A DNA stretch of 64,000 nt, taken from IMG/VR virus record IMGVR_UViG_3300024324_000002. One strand, written 5' to 3'. Origin of the DNA: a virus. The notes below the pieces were generated by a model, which did not search any database, was not told the origin of the DNA, and saw only the letters and a program-made list of their open reading frames with translations. A program made the position numbers and the translations under genes. Below, in pieces: positions 18,801-54,108 of this stretch (its first letter is position 1; each line of letters opens with the position of its first letter).

Positions 18801-21800
18801 ATTAAATAATCTTTAAATCCTTTTTCTGTTTTAACTCATCTCATCCTATAATAAAATTCCATATCTCAACTGAACATTCAAATTAAATCTGTAAAGAATG
18901 TATCTTTCTTAGAATATTTACTAAGATCTAATCATCATAAATCTTTTAATTTATGATTAACATTATTCAAACTATCAATAATAGTATACATTAATCAATC
19001 CATTTCTAATACTCCTTTACCATCTGGTGTAGCTGCCTTGTTTGTATCTGTTAATTTTTTAGCATACTCTTTTATTATTTCAAGATGTTCTTCATTTAAA
19101 TCTTCTAATTTAGTTTTATTATCATTTCTATTATAAGTTTCTATTTTCTTAACAACTCATTTTAAATATAATTCTTTATTAAATATAAATCATTTATTTG
19201 TTTTCTGAATAGCTGCATACATAGGTTGATCTATTATTCAATGCATTCAAGCTATTTGCTCTTTACTTAATCATGCTTTATTTAAATCATTTATAAAATC
19301 TTTTGTCATGATTAAATGTTTTTTCTTTATCATATTTCATTTACTGTGTTGTCATACTCATCACTCTATTCATTTTGGTGGTGTTCATCATAATACAGAT
19401 TCCCTAAATATAGTTAAATAGAATGTAGATTCTTCATCAAAAGATGATAACCGTTGTTCTACTTTTGTCTTAACTCATTCTTTTAATAAAATATCTAAAG
19501 TGTTAGTTTTATCTATTACATTAGATAATGCTTTTAATTCATGTCATCTCATCTTATATGAAATATCTAACTTAGTAGTATAATCAAATATTTGTTTATC
19601 TTTAATTTTTTCTTCTTTTGTTTTTTGAACTGTTTTAGTTTTAGATGTATCTTTAAGTATTTCTATACCATTAACTGATTTTATATTATCTTCATTTAAA
19701 GATTTATTCTCTGATTCTATTTCTTCTATACTATTATATAAACTCTCCTCTTGAGCGTTATCTGTTTTTATAGTATCTTCATATACTATCATCTCACTAT
19801 CTAGTGGCATATCACTACTTTGTGTACTACTTATATCTATTGTCTCTGCTTTACGATAATCTTTAATATTTTCTAAAGATTTTTTATCTATTGTTTGTGT
19901 TTGATATACTATTAATTCATCTAAGTTATCAGTTGGTTGTTTATAATGTGCATGTATAGGTAATACTTTTATTTCTGATACATTAATATTATGTTGATCT
20001 TGTAATAAATGAGTATACATACTTATTTGATTTTGAAAATCTTCTCATAAACGACTTATTCTTTTAAAATCTCTTTTACTTGCTATATCATATATAGTAA
20101 CATCTCAATTCTTTTTTACTGTAAGTAAATCTAATTCTCATGCTATTCATAATTTTTCACTATGTACTTTAAGATAAGTTCAAGATACTTTCTCTCATCT
20201 TTTATCTAATTCTTTTTTAAATTCATCTAATCAATATATAAAATAATCAAACTGGTTTTGATCTTTAATATGAATATATTCATTAAAATCTTTTACTCCT
20301 TCTCAAAAATAATCTTTAATAATTTTATCTAACTCTAATCAAACTGATCTTGATTTTTCTAAATAATCTGGATGCTCTGCTTCAAATTTTTCTCTTGTAT
20401 ATGTAGTAACTCTATCATATGTTTGTCATGTTTCAGTATTAACATAATTCTTTTTATCTTCAGATAAGATTATTTTATTTTGATCTTCAAATAAATTTTC
20501 TAATTTTTTATCTAATTCTTTTTTACTAACTTCTTTAATAGTTTTTACTTCTCAATCTTTAATAATAGTTAATCCTTTATATTCTTCCTTAGTTCTCTTT
20601 TCTTTCTTAACTGGTTTAACTACCGCTTGAGTCTTTTCCATATTAACTAATGCCGCATCATTAATTCTATTTTCATATTGTCTTTCTGATTCTCATTCTA
20701 ATCTTTTTATATACTGATGCATCCTCTCATGTTCTAATGAAAATCTTTCCCATGATTCTATTGTTTTAAATTTATTAACTGGTAATGGATCTGCGTATGT
20801 ATTATCTGTCCATACCTTCTTCTTAAATCATTTCTTTGTTTCTTCTTTATCTATCTTTATTAAAGCTGTAGATTTCTTAGTCTTTGGATCTTCATATATA
20901 ATTAATTGTGTAGATCATTTTTGTCAATGTGCATTCGTTATATCTGTAGCATATTCTACTGATGTATCTTTATATATAAGCTCTTCTCATTTTAAATCCT
21001 CTATCTTAGTATCATATCTCTCAAGATTCTCTTTCATTTCTTTAGTAATATTTTCTTCCATTCTACTCTCTTGCTTCTTAATATCTTCTATATCTAAAGC
21101 TAATTCTTTTATTAATTCTTCATTGAATTGTATTTCTTGATTTCTATATTCTATAGATTCTTTTAATTTCTGAATCTTCTCTTTATTTGATATAGGTTGT
21201 TGTAGTATAACCTCTGGAATGTATTCTGGATTATAAGTTCATAAATATGATTCTTTACTTTTAGTTGTGTTCCTAGCTGCATAGTTTATATATTTAAACT
21301 TATGTGCTGTATTTAATAATCAAAAGAAATGTCTGTTACCATATCATAACGATAGTAATGCTATCTTATATTTAGTTCTTTCGTTTAATGAATTAAAATC
21401 TATTTTATCTCTTACATTCTTAATATCTAAATAATTTTTATTATAATCATAAGCATCTTCAAATATCTCTTTATATTTATTATCTAATTCAATATAAGTT
21501 TGTTTTGATCTCTTAACTTTTTTTCATTTTTTTATTACTAATTCATCACTACTTTTTTGTATCGCCTGTTCTTCTTCTGATGGATTAAATAATTTTTTAA
21601 TCTTTTCAAGTGTACTATCTGCTAATTTAAAATCATGAGAATATTCAAGTGCTATATCAATTTGATTAAAAAGTTTTCTTCTATCATCATCATTTAAAAT
21701 ATACTCTTCTCTATCTTCTGTTTTTAATTTACCATCTTTATCAACTATCTTTACTTGTTTTACCTTTATCTCTTCAGTTAATAATTTTCTTGCATGTCCT

Positions 21801-24800
21801 CACTCACTAAATGATTCTACTATATAATCTCTCTCTGTGTGTTGTTTTAAATTAACTAATGTATCACCATACTTATTTAAAAAGAATTCTGTTAAGTTTC
21901 TTACGTATCATAATGATCATCCTGTTATATTATATGATATATTATCTTTACCTTTCTTACTCTTCATTATCTTTTCTATCTTATTAATAGATAGTTCTTT
22001 ATTAGGATTATTAAACGTTAATGCTAGTAATGATACTACATCGTTATAAAAATACTTTTGTGCAGCTGGTTCTGTTATTCAAATACTATGTAATGCCTTA
22101 CTTAACCATATCTCTTTAGGGAATTTATCAGACTTACTTTTAGCATAATCTAATACTAGTTGTGCTAATGAAGCTATGATCCCAGAATAATCTTCTCATT
22201 TTGTAATTCATTTATCTCAATTAAGTTTAAATAACTCTTTAAATATTGATCATAATGTAGTCTCTGTATCTATAAAATCCTTTGTTAAAATTATTGAAGT
22301 CTTATCTTCTAATATAGAAGTTTTCTTATCTGCATGTTTTTCTACTATTTGTAATAATGTATTAAATACTTTCGTAGTAGAAAATAAAGGTGATACAGTT
22401 TCTTTAGCTTCTACATTTTTATTTCTAGCATCAAGTATAGATGATGATTTTACTTCTTCTTTAATTTTAGTTTTAGGTTTTTCATCTCATATCTGTTCTA
22501 CTAATACATATGGATTTTTATAATCATTTTCTAATGCATCATATAAATCATCTCTTCATTTTTTTATAGCTGAATTAGCTAATACCATAGACTCTCTAGA
22601 TGCTAATGGTATTGATATTACTGTATCAGCATCAAAGTCTGCTTGTAGTTTAAAGAATATAGATTCTGGATGTCAGATAATATCATTAGATTTAACAGAT
22701 TGTTTACTTTCTATTACCTTCCCAGTCTTCTTAACTCTCTTATTTAATCATACATCTTCAGCAAATCTTATCTTATATACTCATGTATTCTCTTTATTAG
22801 GTACAGGATTTCTAAATACATATATTTGTAATGGTACGTCTCATCTTCTTTGTTTATGTAAGAATGTTAATCTCTTTCTATCTGTTTCTGATATAGAAGT
22901 TCCTTGTTCTTCTAATGTTCTTATTTCTTTCTTTAATGTTTTTAATGCATTTTTATGTACAGTTCAGTTCTTAGCTACTACTACTTCATCTCTTTTTAAT
23001 CTTAAATGTTTTTCAATTCAATTCTCATCTATTTTAGTCTTAGGTAAAAAGATTGTTGATTGTTGTATAACTGGATTAGTTCATTCTATTCATCATTTCT
23101 TTATAATCTTTTTAACTCATTGTATTATTCAATCTAATCTAGTATTAATAATAGTATCTGAAGCTCATCATATATTATGTGCCTTATTCATATATGTTAA
23201 CCATTCTCATACATCTCCATATATATCCATTGTCTCATCAAGTATACCTAATGATTGTAATTCTTTTTCTACAAAATTTGTTATCTTCTCTTTAGTTAAA
23301 CTAGTCATATATTCCATATCCTTATATCATAATAGATTTATGATTTGTGTTCATATAGCTTGTTCATCTTTCTTCTTTGATTTATCTTTAGCATTTACTG
23401 CATGTGATAAATCAGTATCATCTATCTTTCATTCTATAACCATCTTAATTCAATTCACTTCTATTATATTACCTGCTTCTGTTATATCTATTAATTCTTT
23501 TCATAATTTTAATCAACTCTTATCTATAACATAAGTTCTATTCATTACCTTAGATCATCAATCCTTATCGTATTTTTTAACAGTTCATTTATTTACATTT
23601 ATCTTAGCCATATAAACTCATTCATTTCCATTAGATTTAACATTTCATACTATATGATATTTCCATGCTCAATCTGAACCATCAAATCAATATAATTCAT
23701 TTGCTAATTCTGATATATCATCTGATGCAAATCATGCACCATCTCTATTAGATGCATTATATACAGTATCTATATCAGTTAGTATATCTTCAGTACTCTT
23801 TTCTAGATAAGAATAATCATCATACTCTTTAAAGAAATCTTTATATTCATTTAATATATTTTCTTTTTCTTTAATTGTTTTAGATTCTTTTATTCTTTTG
23901 AAAAAATCTGCTAACTTTCCATTCATTTCCTTATTATAACTTGTTGTTATTCATTGTTCTGCATCTTTTCTACTTGTTCAAATCTTTAATTCTTTTACTA
24001 TGTATGTTGTTGTTTTATCTGTTATCCCTTCAAATATTCTTGTTGTAGATGCCATCGCTGATTCTCTTTTAATAATTGTTCACATTCATTGATCTCATTT
24101 TGTATGTCATATAACTCTTATATACTCTTCTGTAAATTCTTTTTCTACTTCATTAAATGTAGGTTTATCACTTTTATATATCTGTACAAATGAACTCTTA
24201 TCTCATAATGTTCACATTATATATTCGTTCTCTCATAATCACATCCTCTCTTTTAATACCTTTCTTAAATATGAATAATCAATTACTATTTCATCTTTTT
24301 CAGTTCTTCATACTTCTCCTATAATAGTATCTACTTTCTTTTTAGAAACCTTATTATATAATTTTATATTAAAATCTTTTAAGATTCATAGATGTTCTGG
24401 ACTTAAATCCTTAGGACTCTTTGTATTTAAAATATCTGTTATAAATTTATATCTATGTATTGGTAAAAAATAATCTGGTTTTTTATCTTTAATCTTCTTC
24501 TCATGTTCTGTAAAAAATTTATTAAGTTTAAATTCAACCCCTTGTATTCTAACAATAAATCCATCAAATAATCCTAAATCATTAGTTTGTAATAATCTAT
24601 ATTTAATATCTCATTCTTTATTTAAGTCATCCATTAAATTCTTCATTCTTATTGGAGTCTCCATCATAGCGTCTTCCACAACAGATGTTTGTTTTGGTTT
24701 AGTATAATCTGTTCATCAAGGTTTCATATAATAATTATCTTCTATGTTTGGATATTCTGTTTGCTTCTTTGTTAATGTTTTAACTTTAGTTAAACTACGA

Positions 24801-27800
24801 AGTCTTAAAAATTTCTTACGTAATGCTTTTATAGTTTTATTAACTAATTCTCTTCTTCAATTTTCCTCAATACTTCAATTAGATTTTTGTAATTTATATT
24901 CTATACCTAAATTATCTAATAAATCATCTATGAAGGTATGGAATTCTTCATACTGAACTCATTTATTTTTAACATTTTTTATTACAAATGAATCTACTTT
25001 ATCTTTAAATTCATTATTATTAATATATAACTCTCTTAAATTAGAAGCATTAGATTCATCTTTATATTTAGTTTTAATAACATTAAATAATCTATGTCAT
25101 TCTTCTTGTTCAAAATTCTTAGCTCATGTTAATGCTGTAGCAAATATTTTTTCTATTGGATTCTCTTTCATTGTATCATCATAGTCTCTTACTCAATCAG
25201 CATATTTCTTTATTCTTTCGTTCTCTATATCTAACATAGTAATCTTAATTGTATCTTTAGATATCTTTTTCTTTCCTACTACATTACCTTCCTTATTTAA
25301 TAGATGTACTTTTTCTTCTTTTAATAATTCAAACATATGATCTAAATTCTCTTGATGATTTAATATAGATTCATTGTTTTCTATAAATTTATGTAAATCT
25401 TTTAATTCTATTTGTTTATGTGTTTTTATAAAGTCTTCTACTTTTAAATCAATTTCTTTATTCTGTGCTTTTATTTCTGTACTTAATTTTTCTTTATCTC
25501 ATTTTAAAGTCTTCATTTCTTTCTCTACTTCTGTTTCTACTTCTTTTAATAAAGCTATCTTTTCTTTTCTATTAGCTTTAAGTTTATTTAATTTATCTTT
25601 CTTAATCTGTACTTCTTTTGAATTATCTTTATTTACATATGCGAAATCATATTCTTCTATTTCAGTATCTAAATCTTTTATATCTTCTACTATCTCTTTT
25701 GTTTTCTTTACTGAATATAAATCAGCTTTCATCTTACCCTTAGTAGCTAATGTCTTATATAAATAATCTTTTAAATACTTATCCATAGATTCAGTATATC
25801 TCTTATATGAATCTTGATTAATAAATATTTCTTTATCTTTACTTAATATATTATCTATAGCTTCTATCTCTTTCTTAACTCTCTCTATCTCTATTCTATT
25901 AACATCCTTACTTGGATCCATAGCCTTCTTTCAGAAATTAGATATAGTATTAATATGTTCTAATTCTCATAATTCAATTTCTAAATTCCCTCTCTCAAAT
26001 TCTAATTCCCTAATATAAAGTTCATATAATTTTTCTGATTCCTTTGTGAAATTACTTGTATTAAATTGTTTATAAAATTCTCCTATTATAACTTTCTCTG
26101 TTTTATCTCATAATAAACCTTCAGCTAATTGATAAACATCCTCCTTAGTTTTAATTGTATCATTCTTATGTATCTCTTTAAATAATTCATAGTTATCTAT
26201 TATCTTACTAGCGAATGCTCTTGTATAAAATTGATTCATTGCATTATCCTCTATATTAAAAAACTTAATTTGTTCTTTAATAAAAGACATAACCTCTTTA
26301 CCTGTCTCTGTTAATTCTGATTTACCTACAATCCTATCTTGAATATATCATGTTTGACTTATCTTATCCTCCATTCTAAATATATTCATAACATAATCAT
26401 CTATATTTAAATCGAAGTTATTTACTGTCTGTGCTGGATAGTATTGTTTTAATCAATCATCAATAGTCTCTGCTGTTAATAATTGATCTATTATCTTATT
26501 TGATTTTTTATGATACTCTAAATATCAAACATCTTTTATTTTACCATCTTTAGTTTTTATCTTCTTTGTATTATTAAATGATATATCAAACATCTCTCAT
26601 ATCTTCTTTCATACACCAATATAAAATATACTCCTTTCTTTTTTTGTCTTTGGATCTACCATTCTACCATGAGCAAATGATATATAATTATCTTGTTGAG
26701 ATAATATGTTAGATATTTCATTTCTGTTTGTAGGAGTAGTCCCTAAATCTATAGTATTTATGTTTCATTCTCCAAATACATGCTCTAAATCTTCCTGTAA
26801 ATCAATAATGTTTGAACTATTATATCAATCTTTTTCTCATGAATTATATCAACTACCTAATGGCTTCTTCATTTCTTTAGGTGATTTACTTATATCCTCA
26901 AAAATAGAATGAAAATCTTTAGGTGATTTAACTTCTTCCATCTTATTTAACATAGAATGTTTAGAAATAGATACAAGTTCTCATTCTTCTACCCCTAATA
27001 TTTTTTTATCTTCTTCTGTTACTATTAATTTTTCAGTACTTAATAACTCATCCTGCTTTCATTGACTTAGTTTTTCTATCTTATCTACATCTATAGTTAT
27101 CTTTTGTTTAGTTACTGGATTAAAAAATGTTAATTGATCCTTTGGTTTAACTCATTTATTACTAGATGAATTTTGTAATCTATGTAAGTCTTGATATAAT
27201 TGTCTAGTTAATGTTTGTTTCTGATCTATATCCTTAGTATTATTTATTTCATCTATCTTTTTAGTAAATGTTTCTAAATGTTTCTTCTTATCAGACCTAC
27301 TAAATTCTAATCTAGCTTGATTCAATTGCCCATATCAATTAATTAATCCTTTAATTCTAACTAAATCTTTCTCTAATTTCCTATTCATTATAATCTTACC
27401 TGCTGGATTAGCTGTCTTTAATGATCTAAATATCTTATCTGTTTCCATTAATGAAGCATTTATCCTTTCCTCAAATCATAACATCTTAGATATAGCTCAA
27501 TCTAATGTAATTGTTTTATTAGCTCATTTCTTATAATTAGATTTAATAGAATCCCACTCTTCTGATATAACTTTAATTAATGCATCCTTATCTCATTTAA
27601 ATAATGTAGATAGTTTTCATAAATCTCATACCTGTTGTACTAACTTTTGTGCATTTAATATTTGTGACCTAGCATCTTTCTCCGTAATAGCGTTTCCTTT
27701 CTTAGCTTCATATTCTACAAGTCATAATGCTAAGTCTTTCATATTTTCGTCTCAAGTTAAAAAACTTGTTACCGCATCATAGTATGGATTTAATTCAGCT

Positions 27801-29782
27801 AAATGTTTTACTGCCGAAGTTGCTCATTTTACTCTTGCTGTTTCTCATACAAACTTAGATCCTGCCCCTAATACAGCCATGAATGGTTCAAAAAATGTAT
27901 CTGATACTAGATTTACTACAGCGTTAGCATCTGTATCTACAGTTCTTAAATGTCTATCTACTATAGCACTACCTGCTAATGTTTCACTTAATCATCTAGC
28001 TCAATATGTTAATCATTTTGCTCAAGTTATCGTTAATCTTTTAGCCTTATTTAATGATAATAAAGGTTTAACTATATCTGCTTGTTTAGCTATCTCTCAT
28101 TGTTTCCTTAACATCTTACTTACCTTATCTATCTTTCATGTTACTATATTAGCTTTACTTAGTTTTCATAAACCAAATACTACTTCTGCTAAATCATCTA
28201 CATTATATGTTATGTGTGTAGCTAATGATCAAATAACCCCTGTGTTAGCTAACATTAATTCATATTCATCTCAATATACTTTTTTAAAATCCGTATCTTT
28301 TTTTAATACTGGATTAACTTGTGCTATATTAGATCATACTAAAGCTCCAAATATCATATCTGCTCCAGAAAAAGCTTGTTGTATCCCATTTCATACAGCT
28401 GCTCAAAAGTATTTTATAGTATCTACTACTCAATCTGCATTATTCATTTGTCATATTCTTTTCCTCATCTCTATATTATTGTAATACATAGATGCCGCTA
28501 TATCTGTACCTTCTCTTTTTAATAATTCCGACTTATCCCATTCTGACATTTTATCAAATTCAGTTTTATATGCATCCTTTAATATATCATCAAACGGTTT
28601 AGTTCCTCATTTACTACGTGATTCTTGTGATTGTTTATGAAACTCTGTCATTATTCATCTAAAATAATTACTCCTTGCTGTCTTTTGTCCAAATAATACA
28701 GACTTCATCTTAGCTCTTTCTTTTGGATCTTTAGTAATAGCTAAACTTTCATAGTAATGCTTCTCATCACGCATCCTTTTTTCAAAGTATACATCCGCTA
28801 CCTTCTCTAAATAAATCTCTAAATCACCTCAATCTTTATCTTTATCATGATCTCTATATAAATATTTAAACTCTTTCATTAATTTCTCCTTCTCTGGTTG
28901 TATAACCTCCTTTCTTATTAAATCATCTGTAGCTTTACCTGCAGCATCTGACTCAAAATTAGCATATGTCTCATATGCGTTCTTTCATTCTTGTGGTTTT
29001 ACATACCTAGTAGCTATATCATTCCTTTTTTTATTTAAAAAACTGTTATATCATTTAGCATATTCATCCCATTCTCATCTAAATTTATCTATTACCTTAG
29101 TTTCTATCTCTCATTTAATCTCTTCTCTTCTTCTTTGTTTAGATTCTAAACTACTACTTAACTTATATTCTGATATCTCTTTCTTTATTTGAGCAGATAC
29201 CATATCATTAAATTCCTTATTTTGTCTTTTAATTAAATCATCATATTTATCTTTAACTGTTTCTTGATATTCTTTCTCATAATCAGATCATGCTTTCGAT
29301 GTTTCCTCAAATGCCCCTAATTCTTTATATAATTCTTCTTGATTTCATTTAATGTATTCTGGTCATCATGTAATTCATATAGTTTCAAGTGGACTCCATA
29401 TCTCTTTCTCTTTCTGATATTGCATAATCTTATTAGTCCTATCATCTTCTTGTTTACTTAAAGAAATACTTTCATCTTTAAATAACATATCACCTACATT
29501 AGATAATCATCCAAAATAATTATCTATCTTTTGAGAAGCTTCTCTTTGTTCTTTATCGTCTCATGCTACTAAATCATATACATTACCTACTCAATATCCA
29601 ACATCCGTTATTATTGATAATGGTGATTCTTCCCAATTTTCTTTAACATTACTCCATAATGACTTTTCTCATTCTCCATATATATATTTTTCTCCCCAAC
29701 TAGTTTCTTTGTCTTCCTTTTTTGGAAGCTCTTGTGCTGTACTTTGTTGCACTTGTTTTATGTTCTTGTCTTCTAATGACAT
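15809..29782 (-). CDS. Giant multidomain protein (4,657 aa) with RNA polymerase beta-prime-like double-psi beta-barrel motif; candidate virion/ejected RNAP
   Basis: Checked triplet by triplet. The frame has no TAA/TAG between the TAA at 29801-29803 and the TAA at 15809-15811, and the first ATG is at 29782. All five minus-strand track ORFs inside it are in this frame and end at TGA. The motif IIGHPESIFFKLQADFDADTVISIPLASRE has its DFDAD at 22625-22639. Confidence 0.85.
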
Positions 29783-31024: not shown

Positions 31025-31180
31025 ATTTTATATAATTAATTTTAAATTGCGTACTACTAATATATACAATAAATGAAAAATTACAAGCTAAAATTTAATT
31101 TTAATTTGCATTAGACTCATATTTGCTTATTATATACAATGCTTGTACTCTCTTTTAAATTATATAATAATAAAACTACA
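31025..31180. promoter_or_regulatory. Divergent intergenic region between the minus-strand unit and the HU genes
   Basis: 156 nt, AT-rich. TATATACAAT occurs twice (31061 and 31131). TTGCAT-N17-ATTATA lies upstream of the plus-strand ATG. Confidence 0.35.
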
Positions 31181-31456
31181 ATGAATAAAGCAGAATTTGT
31201 TAAACATATATCTAAAGAATTAGATATATCTCAAACAGAAATGAAAAAAATAGTTAATACCATATTTGATAATATATCTGATATAATAATATCTGGTGAA
31301 CATTTATCCCTATATTGATTCTGAACTTTTAGTTCAGTACAAATCAATGAAAGAAAATGATCTGATCCAAAGAATCAGAAACCTATTATTATTAAAGCTT
31401 TGAAAAGAACTAAATTTAAACCTTCAGTTAATCTGAAAAGAGATCTTAATATATAA
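31181..31456 (+). CDS. HU/IHF-family DNA-binding protein (91 aa)
   Basis: MNKAEFVKHISKELDISQTEMKKIV...LYGFGTFSSVQINERKGSDPKNQKPIIIKA..KFKPS. GFGTF is encoded TGA-TTC-TGA-ACT-TTT at 31316-31330. Confidence 0.9.
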
Positions 31457-31467
31457 TTAATATATAC

Positions 31468-31770
31468 ATGAACGATTTTACTACAATTAATTTAAAAACT
31501 TTCAGTGAAAGAATTTCTGAGTCATTTAATGTGCCGTTAGAAGACTCAAAAAAGATTTTAGGATACATTGTAAGGGAAATGAAATACGAACTCGTACAAG
31601 GTAATAGAGTAGTGTTTGACGGTATATGATCTTTTCAAGCACGTGAACATAACAAAAAACATATCTATTCTTTGAAATATAATAAAGTTGTTAAGAATAT
31701 GACTACTAAACGAGTTTATTTTAGGATCAGTAGAATGTTGAAAGAAGAAATTAATTTTAATGCTAAATAA
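31468..31770 (+). CDS. Divergent HU/IHF-like protein (100 aa)
   Basis: Same architecture as the neighbouring HU gene: ...GNRVVFDGIGSFQAREH... with GIGSF encoded GGT-ATA-TGA-TCT-TTT. Confidence 0.65.
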
Positions 31771-32697: not shown

Positions 32698-33744
32698 TTA
32701 TTTAATTAATTGTAAAGTAGTTTTCCATTTCTTATTATAAGTTCCTACAAGCTTATTGTAGACTTCTTTAGTATCTTGATCACTGAATAACATTCATGAT
32801 CATGCAACCTTTATCTTTAAGCGTTCCTGTAACTGTTCTTTTAATACAGCTACTATCTCTGGTGCATCCTTTAAATATAACGCTACTTTTATCATACCTT
32901 GTCATAATGTATCCTCTCCATACTTTATAAATGCTCATTTCTTTGTTATAATCTCATACTGCAAACAACTGATCAATGTATCCATTAATTCTGAATATCT
33001 ACCATCAGCTCATAAATATAATACTCATTCATCGTTTCACCATTTCATTTTAGTCTTTATAACTTTAATCTTACTTGGCTTCAACTCCAACTCTCCATCT
33101 GAATTTAATATCCAATCTTTCTTCGGACTAGTAGCAATCTCCATACGAAGACTACATGCATATGCAATACCAGTACCTCCTGTAGTTTGATTTGGGTTTC
33201 AGTACCCCCCTATGTTTGTCCTAAACTGATTAATCAATAATAATGTAACTCAATGTGTTCTCAATTTACTCGGTACCATACGCATCATACGATTCATAAG
33301 CCTTGCCTGCTTACCTATATTCATCTGATCTGCTGATGTATCTAACTCTACCATCGGTACCGTAGCTGCTACACTATCCAATATAATCAATTTATATCAA
33401 CCTTCTATACCTTCCACTATTCTATCTACAGTATCCTCTCAACAATCTGGTTCATGTACATCTATTAGATCATTAGAAAGTCTGTTCGGAAATGTCCTCT
33501 CTGTATCTACAAATAAAACTTTATCTCATTTATCTGTATATCTCTCTGCTATCTGCATAGCCAATGTAGTCTTACCAGAACCATTCTTACCAAATAATTC
33601 CACCACTCTACCTATAGGTATCCCTCATCCTGTAACATAATCCAAATTAGGAAATCATGTACTCATAAACTCCATCTCTGGATATGTACCTCATTCATAA
33701 AAAGTATCTTTATACTTCTTCTTTAATACTGTTGTATCTACCAT
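32698..33744 (-). CDS. recA: RecA-family recombinase (348 aa)
   Basis: GGGIPIGRVVELFGKNGSGKTTLAMQ, FVDTE, LIILDSVAA, GKQARLMNRMMR and LLINQFRTNIGGYGNPNQTTGGTGIAYACSLRMEI. Several conserved Gly are TGA. Confidence 0.9.
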
Positions 33745-33912
33745 TTATTCTTTTATTAAGTTATTTAAATATTTATCCAATAGCTGTTCTAATGTTTCTG
33801 CTTCTTTTTCTAATCTAGCTCAATAAGAAGTATTTCATTTTAAATTAACTATTGTTGCTACTCATTTTAAATCAGCTATTTTTTCTATTAATTCTCTTAT
33901 ATCTTTATTCAT
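33745..33912 (-). CDS. Hypothetical protein (55 aa)
   Basis: ATG 33912. The TAA directly abuts the recA ATG (TAAATG). Confidence 0.45.
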
Positions 33913-33933
33913 AAGGTTTCTATTTAGTTAGTT

Positions 33934-33962
33934 ATATATTTTAAATTCTTACCTTCTGTCAA
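33934..33962 (-). promoter_or_regulatory. Sigma70-like promoter candidate
   Basis: On the coding strand, TTGACA-N17-ATATAT lies about 21 nt before the ATG at 33912. Confidence 0.25.
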
Positions 33963-33979
33963 TCTTCCTCCTTCAAAAA

Positions 33980-34165
33980 TTATTCACCAAATCATATACC
34001 TAATAATGCTACTCATCATATTGTAAATAGTCATCCGAAAACACTCGACATAACAACATTAATACCACCATACCATTCTCCAGATTGCATGTACAATACA
34101 TACATTCATGTATAAAATAATCATATACCTATCAATAAACTCAATATCCCAAATATTATTTTCAT
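33980..34165 (-). CDS. Small membrane protein (61 aa, 2 TM)
   Basis: MKIIFGILSLLIGIGLFYTGMYVLY...VFGGLFTIGGVALLGIGFGE. Confidence 0.5.
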
Positions 34166-34718
34166 AAAGAAATTAGGTTAACAAATATAAAAAGAAATTT
34201 TTTTATTTCTCACTTAACAGTTTATTCATAACTGACATAATGTCAAGAAAAAAAGACATAAAAGTATTTTATATCTATTTTATAAGTTTTAATGTTTACC
34301 CCTATGAAACTGTACAACTTTACTTTAAATAAGCCATCAGCATTTTGTCTACATATCTAGTCAATTTATGACATTCCCTTAGTAAAGCCATTCCCTCCAC
34401 TGACATATTTTTAACCCCCTTCTAACTTTTCTATATAATCTTAACTATTCCTCTACTAATTTATCCGTCCTTATTTATACTATGGCTATAGAAAGCCATT
34501 ACTGTTTTTATTAAACTATATTATACATACTCAGAGTTTAATCTATACCCCTGTAAAACTTAACAGGTTTGGCTATAACATGCGAATGTATATCCCTTGA
34601 CATTATATTATCTCTCTTATTAAAACCTTATAAAAGGTAGTATTGGATGTAAGGGGTACCCCTATACTATAACTACTACTGGGACAGATTACCCCCCAAC
34701 AACAGCAACACCATCACC

Positions 34719-35058
34719 TTTTTTTATTTTGATTTGTTTTTTGAGTTTTGTTTTTTTTTATTTTTTATTTTGTTTTTTCTTTGTGTGTGTGTGTTTGTTG
34801 TTGGCTTAGGTTAGGTATTAGTTTGTGTTGTGTGTGTGTTGTGTTTGTGTTGTGTGTGTTGTTGTGTTGTGTTGTGTTGTGTTGTGTTTGTTGTTGTGTG
34901 TATGTTGTGAGTATAGTGTTGTGTTGGCTTAGGTTAGCGGTTTGTTGTCGTATTGACTTTTTTTTTTTTCGGGTAGTGTGTGTTGTGTTGGTTTTTTGTT
35001 ATGGTGGTGGTTTGGTGTTTTTTGTTTTTTTTTGTTTTTTTTGTTTATTGTTTTTTTA
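34719..35058. repeat. G/T-only low-complexity tract (degenerate TG/TTG microsatellite)
   Basis: About 340 nt almost devoid of A and C on the plus strand. TTGGCTTAGGTTAG is repeated at 34801 and 34924. Immediately preceded by a C/A-only run at 34690-34718. Confidence 0.9.
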
Positions 35059-35157
35059 TATATATGTATATATATGTTATTATTATATTATTTATTAGTA
35101 TTATGATATAATACTAGATATATTATATATCTGATATAAATAATATAGCTGGGGAAT

Positions 35158-35235
35158 AAAAAGACTTTTTATTAGGAGAGGGGGAGAATTATATAATTGT
35201 ATTATATATTCTTGTCTCTTAATAAGAAGTCTTTT
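35158..35235. repeat. Long imperfect hairpin/cruciform
   Basis: AAAGACTTTTTATTAGGAGAG pairs with CTCTTAATAAGAAGTCTTTT, with an inner GAATTATATAAT/ATTATATATTC stem. A second 8-bp hairpin ATAGCTAA/TTAGCTAT follows at about 35252-35272. Confidence 0.5.
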
Positions 35236-35672
35236 GATTGGATAGCTAATTCTTAGCTATTTGATTTATGCTTTTTTCTTACTATCTATTATATAGAATA
35301 GCTGGAAAAAAGCAAGGCTTTTTTTTATTTTGTTTTTGTTTATTGTTTGTTCCGATTCGTTTTCTGATTAGGCATAGAACTTATTCTAGTTCATTAGTCT
35401 TAGGATAGCAATAGTAGGATTAATATCGGGATAGGATTTTCTGGGATGTCTTTACTTGCTGGTAGCTTTAACTTAATTTATTGTGTTTCTTTTTCTGGAC
35501 TCTTCTATTAGGGTTCTGTGTATACTACATTCAGTAGGGGGTTCGTTGTTTGCCACTAGGGCTCGTTAGTTTATTTAGGTTCGGGTAGGGGAAGGATTGT
35601 AGTCTTCCTTGTTTATGGCTAAGCGATTAGCTTAGTCTGATGTTGTCTGGAATGATCTTCCTTTTTCTTTCG

Positions 35673-35717
35673 AAAAAAAAAGATGATAGTATCTACATTG
35701 CTGTAGATACTATCATC
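35673..35717 (-). terminator. Strong rho-independent terminator
   Basis: Perfect 16-bp stem GATGATAGTATCTACA / TGTAGATACTATCATC, 4-nt loop, then a 9-nt T-run on the coding strand. Confidence 0.8.
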
Positions 35718-35830
35718 AATGTGATAGCACTGGCTATTCCACTAAGGAATATACCAGTGATATCACTTTTTATTTCATAGTATTTACTGATTAATACAGT
35801 AAATACTATGATTAGTATTATTGCTGTCAT
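35693..35830 (-). CDS. Tiny hydrophobic protein (45 aa), uncertain
   Basis: MTAIILIIVFTVLISKYY...ITLMIVSTAM. The 3' end is buried in the terminator stem. Confidence 0.3.
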   Translation of the reverse strand: MTAIILIIVFTVLISKYYEIKSDITGIFLSGIASAITLMIVSTAM

Positions 35831-35909
35831 AACTTTTTTTTATTAAATTATAAGTGGATAATATAGTAGCTTAATTACTTAGTACAGTATTAGTGTACTA
35901 TAATATTAT

Positions 35910-35934
35910 CCATAAAATTTTTAGTAGTTGTGTG
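35910..35934 (-). promoter_or_regulatory. Conserved 25-nt motif, copy 1
   Basis: Plus-strand CCATAAAATTTTTAGTAGTTGTGTG. Lies 79 nt upstream of the ATG at 35830. GCCGTAGGC mini-hairpin at 35941-35949. Confidence 0.5.
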
Positions 35935-35955
35935 TTGATTGCCGTAGGCTTCTTT

Positions 35956-35988
35956 AAAAAAAAGAGTACCTACTTATTAGCAGGTACT
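35956..35988 (-). terminator. Terminator after the 94-aa gene
   Basis: AGTACCT/AGGTACT stem followed by an 8-nt T-run on the coding strand. Confidence 0.6.
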
Positions 35989-36261
35989 TTCTAGACGCTT
36001 GATTGCGTCTAATCTTATTATATTTAATGAGCAATCTAGTTGCTCATTAATATTTTGGTAGGTACAACCTGCATTCACAGGTGTACCATATTGAGATTCA
36101 TACTCAGCAATTTCTTGCTGAGCATTTAGTGAAGCTGCATAAATTGCAGCTTCTTCTTCTGGAGAAAATTTAATTTCTCCATAAGCTTCTTCGTAATGAT
36201 TGAAGAAAGTTTGAAACTCTCTTCAATCATTATGAAGAATATCTTTTAAATATTTTTTCAT
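35977..36261 (-). CDS. Hypothetical protein (94 aa), unusually hairpin-dense
   Basis: ATG 36261, TAA 35977, one TGA. At least 7 consecutive perfect palindromic stems lie inside the ORF. Confidence 0.45.
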
Positions 36262-36295
36262 AATGATTTATTAATATATAAATGGATATTTCTAT

Positions 36296-36319
36296 CCATA
36301 AAATTTTTAGTAGTTGTGT
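36296..36319 (-). promoter_or_regulatory. Conserved motif, copy 2
   Basis: CCATAAAATTTTTAGTAGTTGTGT lies 34 nt upstream of the ATG at 36261. GGATCTTTGATCC hairpin at 36327-36339. Confidence 0.5.
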
Positions 36320-36329
36320 AAGTGTTGGA

Positions 36330-36530
36330 TCTTTGATCCTATTTTAATAGTCCCCCTTCCTTATGCCTATAGCTATTTAACAACGAGACTTGTTCGAGTT
36401 GTTAAAGTTTTAATTGTCTTCCTTATTTTAATCCCCCCTTCTTGAAGGGGGCTAGGGGGTTATTTTAATTTGTCTTCCTTATTTTTATTTGTCTACTTGT
36501 AGACTTGTAAACTGTTCTCCATTGTATACA
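36330..36530. other. Non-coding hairpin/iteron-like region
   Basis: TGTCTTCCTTATTTT occurs twice (36413 and 36470), and ATTTTAAT is repeated. Hairpins: CCCCCTTC..GAAGGGGG, TAACAAC..GTTGTTA and GTCTAC..GTAGAC. Confidence 0.45.
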
Positions 36531-36565
36531 AAAAAAAAGAGACTGACTATATTAGTCAATCTCTT
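36530..36565 (-). terminator. Terminator after the 39-aa ORF
   Basis: AGAGACTGAC/GTCAATCTCT stem with one mismatch, followed by a 9-nt T-run on the coding strand. Confidence 0.6.
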
Positions 36566-36666
36566 TTCATTTTTCTCATTACTTCTGATTGTTGATTAGC
36601 AGACATTTGTCTGTAATTCTTATATCAGTTAGCTAATGAACTTCAAGCTGTGTTTGTAGTTTTCAT
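36547..36666 (-). CDS. Tiny ORF (39 aa), uncertain
   Basis: MKTTNTAGSSLANGYKNYRQMSANQQSEVMRKMKRDGLI; the stop lies inside the terminator. Confidence 0.3.
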
Positions 36667-36706
36667 AATTTATTTATTTAATAATTAAAGTAAGAACACA
36701 AGAAGA

Positions 36707-37072
36707 CTATAAGTCTTCTGCGTTCATTGCGCTTGAACCAAATGGTTCTAAGCTTTCTACTAATGTAGATAATTCTCAAGCCACAGTTAATACTGGCGCT
36801 TCTTTTTTATCTATACCTTGTTTGTAACCTTGTACAAACTTACTATCTTTATCATACACTTTGAATGATAAGATATTTCCTGATGCTTTACCTTTGATGT
36901 TACAATAAATTGTAGCATCTAATGTTCAATTAGATTGAACATATTGAAATGGAAACACATCTTTAGTAATATCTAAATTTAATTTAGATATTACTAAATC
37001 TAAATTAGATATATGTCTAACACTTGCTATTTTAGATAAGCTTTCTCTATTGTACCCTTTTGAATTTGTCAT
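36707..37072 (-). CDS. Hypothetical protein (121 aa)
   Basis: ATG 37072, TAG 36707. Followed by a GAAGACT/AGTCTTC hairpin. Several internal palindromes. Confidence 0.5.
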
Positions 37073-47065: not shown

Positions 47066-48895
47066 TTATTTATTATTAAATCAAAGTTTCTTTCTCTCTC
47101 TCCTTTGTTTCTGTAATGTAGATTCTCACATAATAATTCTACCATTATGAAATCTACCAAAGATAACTCATAACCAACTCTTTCATCTGTTCTTAGTTAT
47201 GATATACTTAACACTCTTACCATCTCATTTAATAGCTTCTGTATTAACTTCATCTTTGTCGTTAGATATATGTATAACCTTATTAGCTACCTGTGCTATA
47301 GCTGCTCCATCTTTAAATGAATTGTTATCTGGATCTTCATCCTTCTGTAACTTCCTATAGTGTGATACTAATATACATGCAACCTTATACTTCCTAAGTA
47401 AATCATTTAACTGATGCATGAAATTCTCTATAGCTAAATCATGTCTCTCGTTCTTCTCAAACTTTACATAATGTAAATGATCTATCACTACTAATGATAC
47501 TCATTTGTTTATCACTACATCTTTAAATAAGTTTTCTAACTGATGGATGTCCACCATCTTCTTATGTGCTAAGTCTATTATATTAAAGTTATATCTCTTT
47601 AAGTTTATAATAGCTTGATCTATATTTACTAGTATTCAATGATAATCTTCTTCAGTAAATAAGTTAGCTTCAAACATAGAATGGCTAGGCATCCTATCGT
47701 TTCTCTTAACTCTCATTCTATTAACTTCATAGTATATATCATTAATCCTGTTCTCTTCTAGTCTATCCTCTAATGAATATCTAGCTACCTTGAATCATTG
47801 TCTCGCTACATTGTTAGCTATCTGATTACATATCGTACTCTTCCCTACTCATGTCACTCATCATACTACTGTTAGTTGTCATGGTAATAAATATCATAGA
47901 TGATTATCGAACTTCTCAAATCACCAACTCATTACTGATCATTCTGTTCTTTCTTTTAATTCTTTGTATCATCTATCTAATCATTCGCTGTAATCTATTA
48001 ATGCAAATGTTCTCTCCTTAGTTTGTATCGATCAAGCTATAATCATATCAACCAATCAATTTCATAATTGCTTACCTAATTCATTCATATCTTCCTCTTC
48101 TTCTATCTCATAGATATCCGCTTCTATACTCTCTTTGAATACTTCCTTACATTTCTTACCTGCTGCATCATTATCAAATAATAAATATATCTTACTAAAT
48201 TTATTAATGAATGCTACTATCTCTTCAGTAGGCTTAGCTGATGCTGATTTAAATCAGATGACTTGTTCTGTATACTGTCTTAGTGTTAGAAAATCTGTAG
48301 CTCATTCTACTAAGAATATATAATCTTTCTTTAGATCCTTAGTAAAGCTCCAGAATAATCCATCACTTCAATTAGTATTAAATCCTTTTCATATTAAACT
48401 CCTGTATTGATATCATGTCTTCTCTCACTTAATGTCTCTCATCATTATTGATAAACATTGTGTTTCTCATGATGGTGCATTCTTTCCGAATGTCACTGAC
48501 TTAGTTAATCATACTATACCTTTTGGTAATGCTTTATAATTTATTCATCTTAGAAATAAATATGAAGCTAATCTATCTTCATCATTTATAACCTCCATTT
48601 TCTCTATAGGTTTTCTTGGTTCCTCTATCCCTAGACTGAATGCTTTATTAAACCATTCAATAGCATCTGGTATACTTGATCCTGTATGTCATATATAAAA
48701 GTTCAATGGATTCCCTTGTGGTCTCCATTCCTTAGCTTGATTAAAGTTAGATACTATATTATTTTTTATATCATATGTATAACTATCACTATACTTATTA
48801 TCATCAAATAAATATTTTCTATTATTGTATTTAATTCATAATAGTTTTAATACTTCTTCAATAGGTAATTGTTTTATCCTTTCTATAATTTCCAT
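47066..48895 (-). CDS. Primase-helicase: TOPRIM fused to a DnaB-family helicase (609 aa)
   Basis: TOPRIM motifs IFLVEGATDF and LLFDNDAAGKK. Helicase Walker A VVGGVTGVGKSTI and Walker B SLVVIDHLHY. Confidence 0.8.
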
Positions 48896-53743: not shown

Positions 53744-53889
53744 ATATTATATAATGTTATTCAAATAAATATATTTAATAAGTCAGATATCAATAATGCT
53801 CATATAAAAATATAGTCTTCCTTTATTGGAATATCACCATCCTTTAAAGAGTTCAATATTAATAATCATCCATATATTATAAATAACAT
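53731..53889 (-). CDS. Possible small membrane protein (52 aa)
   Basis: Hydrophobic ORF that overlaps the VRR-NUC start; weak support. Confidence 0.25.
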
Positions 53890-53955
53890 ATTCTTATAAA
53901 GTTAATAAATAAGTAACTATATTATATTCAAAAATGAATCTATTGCAAGACTTTT

Positions 53956-54108
53956 TTATATTTTCTTTTTAGCTTCAGCGATTTTTTTTTGTGTTCTTTT
54001 TTCTTGTTCTTCTAATATAAATCTAATCTGATCTTCTAGTACTTCTGTATTAAACTTTTTATTTAATCCATAAAGATCCCATAATCTTTTTATTGTCATT
54101 TCTTTCAT
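53956..54108 (-). CDS. Hypothetical protein (50 aa)
   Basis: ATG 54108, TAA 53956; charged helix. Confidence 0.4.
   Translation of the reverse strand: MKEMTIKRLWDLYGLNKKFNTEVLEDQIRFILEEQEKRTQKKIAEAKKKI

What the first reader, a model, noticed from the sequence alone, without database searches (positions are those of the whole stretch)
34166..35672. 1.5-kb non-coding island with an abrupt C/A-only to G/T-only switch and a ~340-nt G/T tract
This is the largest gene-free stretch in an otherwise tightly packed genome. The plus strand is G-poor up to 34718 and ends in CCCCCCAACAACAGCAACACCATCACC. It then flips to about 340 nt made almost only of G and T: a degenerate (TG)n/(TTG)n, with TTGGCTTAGGTTAG repeated 123 nt apart. 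Next come a pure A/T stretch (about 35055-35145), long hairpins (35158-35235 and 35252-35272), and the direct repeats ATAGCTGGrrAAtAAAAAG at about 35146 and 35296. A strand-composition switch next to an AT-rich unwinding-type element and repeats suggests a replication origin or packaging site. If transcribed with the other genes it would give a CA-only RNA.
Basis: partly seen in the sequence, partly recalled or inferred. Interest (0 to 1): 0.7.

Follow-up and report, generated by a model that had tools for sequence, protein, structure and literature searches.

The report
Conserved lopsided non-coding phage region
A 1.5-kb gene-free stretch in a 64-kb phage of glycine-recoding (code 25) bacteria holds a 338-base tract that is almost only G and T on one strand; it is real, is unchanged in four assemblies and keeps its layout in a distant relative, so it is a working control region, most likely the replication origin zone, though its function is not proven.

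Summary
The G/T tract is real. Positions 34719-35056 are 92% G+T, and every pure-G/T run of 25 nt or more in the window lies there. The abrupt switch, the exact 14-mer pair, the AT stretch and the hairpins are also real. The left flank is not "C/A-only": it is 36% T and no poorer in G than the whole strand.

The window is a near-complete, probably circular phage genome. TGA encodes glycine, and nearly all genes lie on the minus strand.

The tract is base-identical in two further assemblies. A third has one mismatch up to where its contig ends inside the island. A relative with 75% RecA identity has different flanking genes but keeps the layout: promoter-like sites, a single-copy 70-nt core, a T-run, a C-free tract, an AT stretch, hairpins, a 300-nt conserved block and a terminator.

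Fourfold sites are only 3-11% G+C, so the tract's 28% G is maintained by selection.

- **Best reading (about 0.4):** replication-origin zone. The AT stretch is the least stable 100 bp in both genomes.
- **Main rival (about 0.25):** read on the gene strand, the tract is a G-free, C/A-rich, unstructured Rho-loading-type RNA.
- **Rejected:** hypervariable microsatellite.
- **Unsupported:** packaging site.

The parts
34219..34246 (-). Sigma-70-type promoter-like site, TTGACA-16-TAAACT, for the operon holding the 61-aa and 55-aa ORFs and recA. It overlaps the palindrome TGACATAATGTCA.
   Evidence: Found by the scan. The block 34181-34263 is 80% identical to L012 2315-2232. L012 has TTGACA-16-TATACT, an 11/12 match. 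The 28-nt motif occurs only twice in the genome, here and at 54518-54545.
34411..34439 (+). Conserved promoter-like site, TTAACC-17-TATAAT, pointing rightward into the core and tract.
   Evidence: Found. L012 has TTCACC-18-TATAAT at the collinear place. This is a prediction only.
34513..34526 (.). 14-nt block AAACTATATTATAC, identical in the relative. It reads TATAAT on the minus strand.
34651..34718 (.). Single-copy conserved core, GGGGTACC..ACTGGGACAGATTACCCCCC..ACCATCACC, ending exactly at the composition switch.
   Evidence: The 153-nt blastn block 34651-34803 (core plus the start of the tract) is 76% identical to L012 1474-1324. The core is unique in the window even with 3 mismatches. A hairpin is possible on the minus strand but is not unusually stable, z 0.07.
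34719..35056 (+). G/T tract: C-free on the plus strand, and a G-free C/A sequence on the gene (minus) strand. It opens with a 65-nt T-run.
   Evidence: It is identical in L009 and L010 and nearly so in L011. The relative has a 439-nt counterpart with the same 28% G and 3% C but more A.
34801..34814 (+). First copy of the exact 14-mer TTGGCTTAGGTTAG.
34821..34909 (+). Four tandem copies of a 22-nt unit, built from TTGTG-type pentamers.
   Evidence: The relative has three 23-25-nt repeats of different sequence, L012 998-1069.
34917..34977 (+). Conserved island inside the tract: the second 14-mer copy plus GCGGTTT...T-run...GGGTAGT.
   Evidence: 72% identical to L012 1314-1255.
35057..35147 (.). 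AT stretch (91% A+T), a candidate DNA-unwinding element.
   Evidence: Positions 35047-35146 are the least stable 100 bp of the window (z 4.04). The L012 counterpart, 893-992, is the least stable in that locus. The two are collinear and about 70% alignable.
35155..35239 (.). Long imperfect hairpin flanked by A- and T-runs, resembling a bidirectional terminator.
   Evidence: z -8.8. L012 has shorter AT-rich hairpins followed by a T6 run at the same place.
35242..35314 (.). Two further hairpins, 35242-35260 and 35269-35314, each with a 3-nt loop.
   Evidence: z -5.1 and -3.9.
35336..35672 (.). Conserved block of about 330 nt (37% G+C, G>C on the plus strand) with one hairpin kept through two compensatory changes. 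It may be a non-coding RNA or a set of protein-binding sites.
   Evidence: Global alignment to L012 910-600 scores 59, against 9.0 +/- 4.4 for shuffles. The hairpin GAACT..AGTTC in the window is CCACT..AGTGG in L012. Fold z-scores are not significant.
35682..35717 (-). Strong intrinsic terminator (16-bp stem plus a T9 run) ending the upstream operon.
   Evidence: z -8.1. The L012 counterpart is at 588-611.
35965..35988 (-). Intrinsic terminator directly after the 94-aa gene.
   Evidence: A similar hairpin lies at L012 476-439.

Best explanation
The island is a conserved, single-copy, cis-acting control region between two co-directional transcription units of a lytic-type phage of Gracilibacteria/Absconditabacteria. 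It most likely contains the origin of replication.

**Proposed mechanism**
1. The 91-bp AT stretch, the least stable duplex in the genome, opens first.
2. The adjoining 338-bp tract has one strand without C and the other without G, so in this phage neither strand can fold back on itself. The bubble can therefore spread leftward and stay open.
3. The T/G-rich strand would be held by single-strand-binding proteins or by the phage RecA.
4. The C/A strand would be free to load the phage primase-helicase.
5. The unique 70-nt core at the far end of the tract, and the conserved island inside it, would be the sequence-specific recognition or boundary sites.
6. Terminators and hairpins on the right shield the zone from the main transcription. 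A conserved promoter-like site on the left points into it and could activate it.

**Shown:** the anatomy, its invariance between assemblies, its conservation in a relative, its uniqueness in the genome, the duplex-stability minimum, and selection for G/C content.

**Inferred:** every functional step, including which proteins bind.
For: - **Real and fixed.** The sequence is identical in two further assemblies from other samples. A third shows 1 mismatch in the 2,124 nt it covers.
- **Layout kept while neighbours changed.** A relative with 75% RecA identity has different flanking genes. It keeps the same order of promoter-like sites, core, T-run, C-free tract, AT stretch, hairpins, conserved block and terminator.
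- **Under selection.** Fourfold-degenerate sites are only 3-11% G+C. The tract holds 28% G, and the right-hand block is 37% G+C.
- **Duplex-stability minimum.** The AT stretch is the least stable 100 bp of the whole window (z 4.0). Its homologue is the minimum in the relative's locus.
- **Single copy.** The core and the 14-mer pair occur nowhere else in the genome.
- **Repeats beside the AT stretch.** Tandem repeats of about 22-25 nt lie in the tract in both phages.
- **Gene context.** The phage encodes a primase-helicase, RecA, an SbcC-like protein, an exonuclease and a resolvase-like nuclease. The 20 proteins scanned included no initiator and no DNA polymerase. That fits an origin opened without a dedicated initiator, followed by recombination-driven replication. 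The island lies between these genes and recA.
- **Shielded from transcription.** At least two strong minus-strand terminators, plus hairpins, precede the zone.
Against: - There is no direct evidence of initiation here.
- The repeats are low-complexity and differ in sequence between the two phages. There is no DnaA-box cluster.
- Skew analyses show no polarity switch at the island.
- A second gene-free region (53744-54757) has an almost equally unstable AT stretch flanked by a 31-nt inverted repeat. It could be the origin instead.
- In a genome whose neutral sites are about 95% A+T, an AT-only stretch may simply be unconstrained spacer.
- The origin idea does not specifically predict what is conserved in the tract: no C and about 28% G on the plus strand, with A and T free to vary.
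- The "structure-free" argument holds for the window phage only. The relative's tract contains both A and T.
- A transcript-primed (R-loop) version is energetically disfavoured for the plus-strand RNA, at +0.28 kcal/mol per bp against a genome mean of +0.11. The parameters for that calculation were recalled from memory.
Confidence: 0.4

Rival explanations
1. The tract is a Rho-type transcription stop or insulator. On the minus strand, which carries nearly all the genes, it is a 338-nt untranslated RNA that is 64% A, 28% C, 6% U and 2% G and cannot fold. This matches the kind of RNA on which the Rho hexamer loads. Rho would then release any polymerase that read through the intrinsic terminators, before it reached the next promoter and the recA/structural operon. 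A variant of this idea is an abundant decoy RNA that soaks up Rho or another ring-shaped RNA binder.
For: - Minus-strand C minus G per 150 nt averages -9.8 +/- 8.4 across the genome but reaches +55 in the tract. The next highest value outside the island is +16. The relative behaves the same way, with +53 against -10.6 +/- 11.6.
- What is conserved between the two lineages is exactly C at about 28% and G at 2-3%. A and U vary freely and the primary sequence is mostly not conserved.
- C/G is 13.7 over 338 nt, far above the C/G > 1 over 78 nt used to predict rut sites. Those sites are described as C-rich, G-poor and unstructured (PMC6407284).
- In Bacillus subtilis, many Rho-terminated fragments carry stretches of more than 150 nt with high C relative to G. 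Fragments with high excess C are nearly all terminated (PMC13323073).
- The phage's coding strand is 60% purine with C the rarest base. That paper attributes this pattern to avoidance of Rho. The tract is the outstanding exception.
- The tract lies at the end of one transcription unit and before the promoter of the next.
Against: - At least two strong intrinsic terminators and three more hairpins lie upstream on the same strand. Little transcription should reach the tract, and no conserved minus-strand promoter lies between them and the tract.
- Pyrimidine-C dinucleotides, the units bound by E. coli Rho, number only 17 in 338 nt in the window, against 62 in the relative.
- The tract is several times longer than a rut site.
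- This idea does not explain the conserved core, the conserved island inside the tract, or the plus-strand promoter-like site.
- The next operon has its own consensus-like promoter, so tight insulation may not matter.
- Whether the host has Rho could not be checked (no literature found).
Confidence: 0.25
2. The island encodes a long non-coding RNA on the plus strand, of about 0.8 kb in the window and 0.9 kb in the relative. It would start at the conserved promoter-like site (34411-34439), run through the core, the U-run, the G/U tract and the AU stretch, and end at the hairpin 35155-35239. Its function is unknown; it could be regulatory, or could prime or activate replication.
For: - In both phages a consensus-like promoter (perfect TATAAT, TTnACC at 17-18 nt) and a hairpin followed by a T-run bracket the same set of elements in the same orientation.
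- G exceeds C on the plus strand throughout 34719-35672, as it does on the sense strand of the phage's genes, including the two plus-strand HU genes.
- A helix pairing the C/A end of the core with the start of the G/T tract is predicted in both phages.
Against: - No Rfam match was found.
- Folding is not consistently better than shuffles: z -2.7 in the window, +1.45 in the relative, and 0.26 / -0.40 for the core-tract helix.
- T exceeds A on this strand, unlike the phage's sense strands.
- G-U pairs in the core hairpin favour the minus strand.
- Promoter and terminator calls in AT-rich DNA are weak evidence. Promoter-like hits are no more frequent than in shuffles.
Confidence: 0.12
3. It is a hypervariable microsatellite or junk spacer with no function, or an assembly artefact.
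For: - The sequence is low-complexity, of (TG)n/(TTG)n type.
- One assembly breaks inside the AT stretch.
Against: - The tract is identical base for base in two further assemblies. A third has 1 mismatch in the part it covers.
- It holds 28% G where neutral sites are 3-11% G+C.
- Conserved islands and a collinear layout are present in a diverged relative.
Confidence: 0.03
4. It is a packaging (pac/cos) site or the physical genome ends.
For: - It is single-copy and non-coding.
- One contig ends at about 35123.
Against: - Four contigs of 64.0-64.9 kb are broken at different places. The window's own ends fall inside a repetitive collagen-like gene.
- The terminase gene (13354-15498) is 19 kb away.
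- There is no terminal-repeat signature.
Confidence: 0.05

Closest known systems
Phage and plasmid replication origins built from an AT-rich unwinding element plus flanking repeats (lambda ori, SPP1 oriL), and initiator-free, transcription-assisted origins (T4 oriF/oriG, T7 primary origin). Comparison from established knowledge.
   Same: - A single-copy non-coding region next to the replication and recombination genes.
- It contains the genome's least stable AT stretch.
- Short tandem repeats lie beside that stretch.
- Hairpins and promoter-like sites flank it.
- The phage has RecA and nucleases, as T4 does for recombination-dependent replication.
   Different: - There are no sequence-conserved iterons, no DnaA boxes and no initiator gene.
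- No known origin has a 340-bp tract with one strand C-free and the other G-free.
- A plus-strand R-loop is energetically disfavoured.
Rho utilisation (rut) sites of Rho-dependent terminators (lambda tR1; the long C-over-G stretches of B. subtilis Rho targets, PMC13323073; RhoTermPredict criteria, PMC6407284).
   Same: - On the gene strand the tract is untranslated, unstructured, C-rich and nearly G-free.
- It lies at an operon end.
- Its composition, not its sequence, is what is conserved.
   Different: - It is four to five times longer than a rut site and dominated by A.
- It has few pyrimidine-C dinucleotides in the window phage.
- It lies behind strong intrinsic terminators.
- It carries sequence-conserved islands and a conserved core.
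Protein-sponge small RNAs made of many short A/C or GGA motifs (CrcZ for Hfq/Crc, CsrB for CsrA). Comparison from established knowledge.
   Same: It is 340-440 nt long, motif-dense and poorly conserved in sequence. AAnAAnAA motifs occur at 8.3 per 100 nt, against 0.44 genome-wide.
   Different: - The motif count is no more than the base composition predicts: 28 observed against 21.7 +/- 5.7 in shuffles.
- No conserved promoter or terminator was found for a minus-strand RNA of this extent.
- No partner protein is known.
Simple-sequence (TG)n/(CA)n microsatellites.
   Same: It has runs of TG, TTG and TTGTG units.
   Different: There is no length or sequence variation among four assemblies. It is embedded in a conserved layout and held against a strong AT mutational pull.

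Membership tests
Iteron-type phage/plasmid origin | An AT-rich DNA-unwinding element | tested here: met
   Positions 35047-35146 are the least stable 100 bp in the window (z 4.04). The homologous L012 893-992 is the minimum in that locus.
Iteron-type phage/plasmid origin | Three or more direct repeats of about 17-22 bp (iterons) that are sequence-conserved binding sites | tested here: inconclusive
   The window has a 22-nt unit repeated four times. The relative has three 23-25-nt repeats. Both are low-complexity and unrelated in sequence.
Iteron-type phage/plasmid origin | A cognate initiator gene nearby, or host DnaA boxes | tested here: not met
   No initiator was found among 20 proteins scanned against Pfam and PHROGs. 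There is no DnaA-box enrichment: two boxes with 1 mismatch each at 35853 and 35906, and 17 genome-wide. Not all proteins were scanned.
Iteron-type phage/plasmid origin | Replication actually starts here (coverage peak, skew switch, 2D gels) | not testable with these tools
   Skew is uninformative because all genes are co-oriented and fourfold sites are 3-11% G+C. No read data were available.
Transcript-primed (R-loop) origin (ColE1, T4 oriF, mitochondrial type) | A promoter directed into a G-skewed segment followed by an unwinding element | tested here: met
   A conserved plus-strand promoter-like site lies at 34411-34439. Plus-strand GC skew in the tract is +0.86 (96 G, 7 C). The AT stretch follows. 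The promoter is a prediction only.
Transcript-primed (R-loop) origin (ColE1, T4 oriF, mitochondrial type) | An RNA-DNA hybrid more stable than the DNA duplex | tested here: not met
   For the plus-strand RNA the hybrid minus duplex energy is +0.28 kcal/mol per bp (genome +0.11 +/- 0.04). For the minus-strand RNA it is -0.04, which is neutral. The nearest-neighbour values were recalled from memory.
Rho-dependent terminator (rut site) | At least 70-80 nt of C-rich, G-poor, unstructured RNA on the transcribed strand | tested here: met
   The minus strand has 96 C and 7 G over 338 nt. C minus G per 150 nt is +55, against a genome mean of -9.8 +/- 8.4. The criteria come from PMC6407284 and PMC13323073.
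Rho-dependent terminator (rut site) | Regularly spaced C / pyrimidine-C dinucleotides | tested here: inconclusive
   C occurs about every 3.5 nt. There are only 17 CC+UC dinucleotides in the window tract, against 62 in the relative.
Rho-dependent terminator (rut site) | A polymerase pause site within about 150 nt downstream | tested here: inconclusive
   The conserved core lies within about 70 nt downstream. Its minus-strand hairpin keeps its pairs through changes, but it is not more stable than shuffles, z 0.07.
Rho-dependent terminator (rut site) | The strand is transcribed and untranslated, and the host encodes Rho | not testable with these tools
   The tract is untranslated (no ORFs). Transcription could not be assessed, and upstream terminators argue for low flux. 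No host genome was available and nothing was found in the literature.
Known structured RNA families (Rfam), tRNA/tmRNA | A match to a covariance model or a tRNA fold | tested here: not met
   There is no gathering-score hit in the window. Only chance-level hits appear at E up to 10 in 33500-36400. ARAGORN found none.
Hypervariable microsatellite | Length or sequence variation between close relatives | tested here: not met
   L009 and L010 are 100% identical over 4,001 nt, and L011 shows 1 mismatch in 2,124 nt.

The most novel reading that the evidence does not exclude
The tract is a purpose-built, strand-asymmetric landing pad for an origin that needs no initiator protein.

- Once the neighbouring AT stretch melts, a C-free G/T strand and a G-free C/A strand cannot re-fold.
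- The G/T strand, which is the sequence type RecA-family proteins prefer, would be coated by the phage RecA or a single-strand-binding protein.
- The C/A strand would load the phage primase-helicase.
- This would give a polar origin that also serves as the hotspot for RecA-driven replication.

This would be a way of specifying an origin by base composition rather than by binding-site sequence.
Probability: 0.12. Interest if true: 0.8.

Novelty: new variant of a known kind. Interest (0 to 1): 0.55.

Why it matters
Phages of the glycine-recoding candidate-phyla bacteria are known only from metagenomes, and nothing is known about how they replicate or control transcription. This island is the largest non-coding element of an abundant, recurrently assembled marine phage (one assembly is from Saanich Inlet at 200 m).

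It is held constant against a very strong AT mutational pull. What is conserved is base composition on one strand rather than sequence.

- **If it is the origin,** it would show a new way to build one, and would give a marker for replication-rate estimates from metagenomes.
- **If it is a Rho-loading RNA,** it would be an unusually extreme natural example. [quoted passage not shown]

Either outcome can be tested with existing public read data.

Tried and rejected
**Searches for more relatives of the element all failed**
- Motif scans of viral contigs returned nothing or chance hits in coding DNA.
- Motif scans of metagenome contigs and of genome contigs returned only chance hits (checked).
- A RecA-pattern scan and a RecA-profile scan of viral contigs gave nothing, or only RecAs of 33% identity or less without any such tract.
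- Protein searches with the 253-aa and 369-aa neighbours found only near-identical copies on short contigs.
- Contigs carrying the other RecA relatives stop before the island.
- No GenBank phage matches the region. The terminase is only 22-23% identical to that of Thermus phages.

**Ideas tested and dropped**
- tRNA, tmRNA or a known RNA family.
- A hidden gene. Only G/T-derived pseudo-ORFs are present, and no peptide is conserved across the core.
- A DnaA-box cluster.
- A replication skew step at fourfold sites.
- A plus-strand R-loop primer.
- A globally structured RNA on either strand.
- A specific AAnAAnAA sponge motif beyond what composition predicts.
- A repeated phage-polymerase promoter; the core is single-copy.
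- Similarity between this island and the second gene-free region, beyond the shared promoter and AT-rich DNA.
- The ATAGCTGG direct repeats as meaningful.
Full report
**What the window is**

With the standard bacterial code the 64-kb window has almost no long ORFs: 9 ORFs of 150 aa or more, covering 6.5 kb. Reading TGA as a sense codon raises this to 53 ORFs covering 62 kb, four-fifths of it on the minus strand.

TGA-encoded positions fall on the glycines of collagen-like G-X-Y repeats and of Walker A loops. The code is therefore table 25 (TGA = Gly), which is known only from Gracilibacteria and Absconditabacteria (established knowledge).

Recognisable genes:
- RecA and a Toprim-DnaB primase-helicase.
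- An SbcC-like protein, a Cas4-like exonuclease and a resolvase-like nuclease.
- A large terminase subunit.
- By gene order and sequence inspection only: portal, capsid and fibre genes, plus a 4,657-aa giant protein.

The window is the reverse complement of NCBI contig JABIGS010000152.1 (64,108 nt). Both contig ends lie in the same repetitive collagen-like gene. Three other assemblies of 64.0-64.9 kb are broken at other places. The genome is therefore essentially complete and maps as a circle.

**Checking the observation**

The tract is real. Positions 34719-35056 are T 64%, G 28%, A 6% and C 2% on the plus strand. Every pure-G/T run of 25 nt or more in the window lies inside it.

Also confirmed:
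- The switch directly after CCCCCCAACAACAGCAACACCATCACC.
- The exact 14-mer pair 123 nt apart.
- The AT stretch at 35057-35147.
- A long hairpin at 35155-35239.

Corrections:
- The left flank is not C/A-only. It is 36% T, and its 9.8% G is ordinary for this strand.
- The "second hairpin" is really two hairpins.
- The ATAGCTGG repeats are within chance.

No ORF in the island is credible. There is no tRNA and no Rfam match.

**Is it a free-running microsatellite? No**

The whole of 33000-37000 is 100% identical in an ENA assembly and in a Saanich Inlet 200-m assembly. A third JGI assembly has one mismatch in 2,124 nt.

A more distant phage (L012, RecA 75% identical) has unrelated small genes on both sides of its island. 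It keeps the same parts in the same order:
1. The leftward TTGACA-16-TAwACT promoter-like site.
2. A rightward TTnACC-17/18-TATAAT site.
3. A 14-nt identical block.
4. CTTGACA.
5. A 70-nt core: GGGTACC..ACTGGGACAGAwTACCCCC..ACCATCAC.
6. A T-run.
7. A C-free tract of about 440 nt, carrying a conserved island (TTGGCTTnGnT..GCGGTTT..T-run..GGGTAGT).
8. An AT stretch.
9. AT-rich hairpins followed by a T-run.
10. A 300-nt alignable block, scoring 59 against 9 +/- 4.4 for shuffles.
11. A strong terminator.

Fourfold-degenerate sites in the phage's genes are only 3-11% G+C. The 28% G of the tract and the 37% G+C of the right-hand block are therefore being maintained by selection.

**Transcriptional setting**

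Terminator-like sites are strongly enriched in this region: 8 found against 0.9 expected. Two strong minus-strand terminators (35988-35965 and 35717-35682) close the upstream unit, which carries the replication and recombination genes.

A 28-nt promoter motif occurs exactly twice in the genome. One copy is at 34246-34219, ahead of the small ORFs and recA. The other is at 54545-54518, in the only other large gene-free region.

The island therefore lies at the junction of two co-directional transcription units. Three hairpins (35155-35314) sit between the right-hand conserved block and the AT stretch.

**Origin reading**

Points in favour:
- The AT stretch is the least stable 100 bp of the genome (z 4.0), and its homologue is the minimum in L012.
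- The core is single-copy.
- Tandem repeats of 22-25 nt lie in the tract in both phages.
- No initiator and no DNA polymerase turned up among the 20 proteins scanned, while RecA and nucleases are present. That fits an origin opened without a dedicated initiator, followed by recombination-driven replication.

Points against:
- The repeats are low-complexity and not conserved in sequence.
- There is no DnaA-box cluster.
- Cumulative skew falls monotonically with only a local reversal here, and fourfold-site skews show no step.
- The second gene-free region has an almost equally unstable AT stretch flanked by a 31-nt inverted repeat.
- In this genome AT-only DNA is also what unconstrained spacer would look like.
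- A ColE1/T4-style primer RNA reading rightward is disfavoured, because a U-rich RNA makes a weak hybrid (parameters from memory).

**RNA reading**

What the two lineages share in the tract is not G+T richness, which is 92% in one and 74% in the other. It is the near-absence of C and about 28% G on the plus strand. On the gene strand that means a G-free RNA with 28% C.

Minus-strand C minus G per 150 nt is -9.8 +/- 8.4 genome-wide and +55 here. In L012 it is +53 against -10.6 +/- 11.6.

This is the stated hallmark of Rho-loading sites: C-rich, G-poor and unstructured (PMC6407284). It also matches the strongest class of B. subtilis Rho targets, which have more than 150 nt of high C relative to G (PMC13323073). 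That paper attributes purine-rich coding strands to avoidance of Rho. This phage's coding strand is 60% purine, with C the rarest base.

Against this reading:
- Terminators upstream should leave little to terminate.
- Pyrimidine-C dinucleotides are few in the window phage.
- The tract is much longer than a rut site.
- The conserved core and the island inside the tract are left unexplained.
- Whether the host has Rho is unknown.

A plus-strand long RNA, bracketed by the conserved promoter-like site and the hairpin with its T-run, is also possible. It lacks structural support. In the right-hand block, one hairpin is kept through two compensatory changes, but with only two sequences this is thin evidence.

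**Verdict**

The finding is a real, selected and conserved composite cis-element that is specific to this phage lineage.

| Reading | Confidence |
|---|---|
| Replication-origin zone | about 0.4 |
| Rho-type G-free RNA element | about 0.25 |
| Plus-strand long non-coding RNA | about 0.12 |
| Packaging site | about 0.05 |
| Microsatellite or artefact | about 0.03 |

These readings are not fully exclusive. A junction region of this size could hold both an origin and a transcription stop.

The function remains unproven. Public read and transcript data from the source samples could settle it.

Noticed in passing
whole window; for example genes 1-786, 973-2574, 62371-63843 and 47066-48895: TGA is a sense codon encoding glycine (genetic code 25). 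It fills the G positions of collagen-like G-X-Y repeats and of Walker A loops. The host is therefore inferred to be Gracilibacteria or Absconditabacteria. Public gene calls for the same contig are fragmented (NCBI) or use TGA = Trp.
   Followed up: partly
window 53744-54757: This is a second gene-free region of about 1 kb. It holds the second least stable AT stretch (54625-54724), flanked by a 31-nt inverted repeat (54555-54585 / 54733-54763). It also holds the twin of the 28-nt promoter motif (54545-54518), followed within about 60 nt by a hairpin and an intrinsic terminator (54462-54431). Further left lies a G/C-richer stretch of about 280 nt (54140-54420) with GGGGGGTAAGGGGGG on the minus strand, which could be an RNA gene. 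It has no Rfam match. This region is an alternative candidate for the origin.
   Followed up: partly
window 34219-34246 and 54518-54545 (minus strand): The motif TTGACATTnnnnnAGTTATGAATAwACT occurs exactly twice in the genome. Each copy heads one of the two transcription units, and each is followed by a short AU-rich hairpin plus a T-run. This may be an attenuator or antitermination arrangement.
   Followed up: partly
window 15809-29782 (minus strand): This is a giant 4,657-aa ORF between the recA/HU cluster and the terminase gene. The sequence contains an HExxH motif (LEHERMHQY) and a possible PD-(D/E)xK nuclease motif. It was not scanned against domain libraries. The relative has a 4,621-aa counterpart.
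   Followed up: no
window 31139-31456 and 31468-31770 (plus strand): Two adjacent HU-like DNA-binding protein genes are the only clear plus-strand genes. They are annotated Bac_DNA_binding in the other assemblies' gene calls, and the arrangement is conserved in the relatives L012, L035 and L036.
   Followed up: no
window 1-100 and 63900-64000; L007 tail: Both contig ends lie in 90-nt tandem repeats of one collagen-like fibre gene. The assembly was broken by the repeat, and the true copy number of the repeat is uncertain. Contig lengths range from 64,028 to 64,875 nt across assemblies.
   Followed up: partly
whole window, coding strand: Composition is extreme. Fourfold-degenerate sites are 3-11% G+C. 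The coding strand is 60% purine, with C at 10.4%. About 10% of 78-nt windows on the antisense strand have C/G above 3, so antisense RNA would be strongly Rho-prone if the host has Rho.
   Followed up: partly
L012 1711-2195 and 2300-2400: In the relative, the space between the core and the leftward promoter holds two overlapping small ORFs (49 and 119 aa) of unknown function that are absent from the window phage. Three tandem 24-nt repeats (AAATTACTTACTAATATAAAAATA) lie just downstream of that promoter.
   Followed up: no
window 35693-35830 (minus strand): A 45-aa hydrophobic ORF was called in one public annotation but not in another. Its last 25 nt form half of the strong terminator hairpin 35717-35682. 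Whether it is a real gene is doubtful.
   Followed up: no
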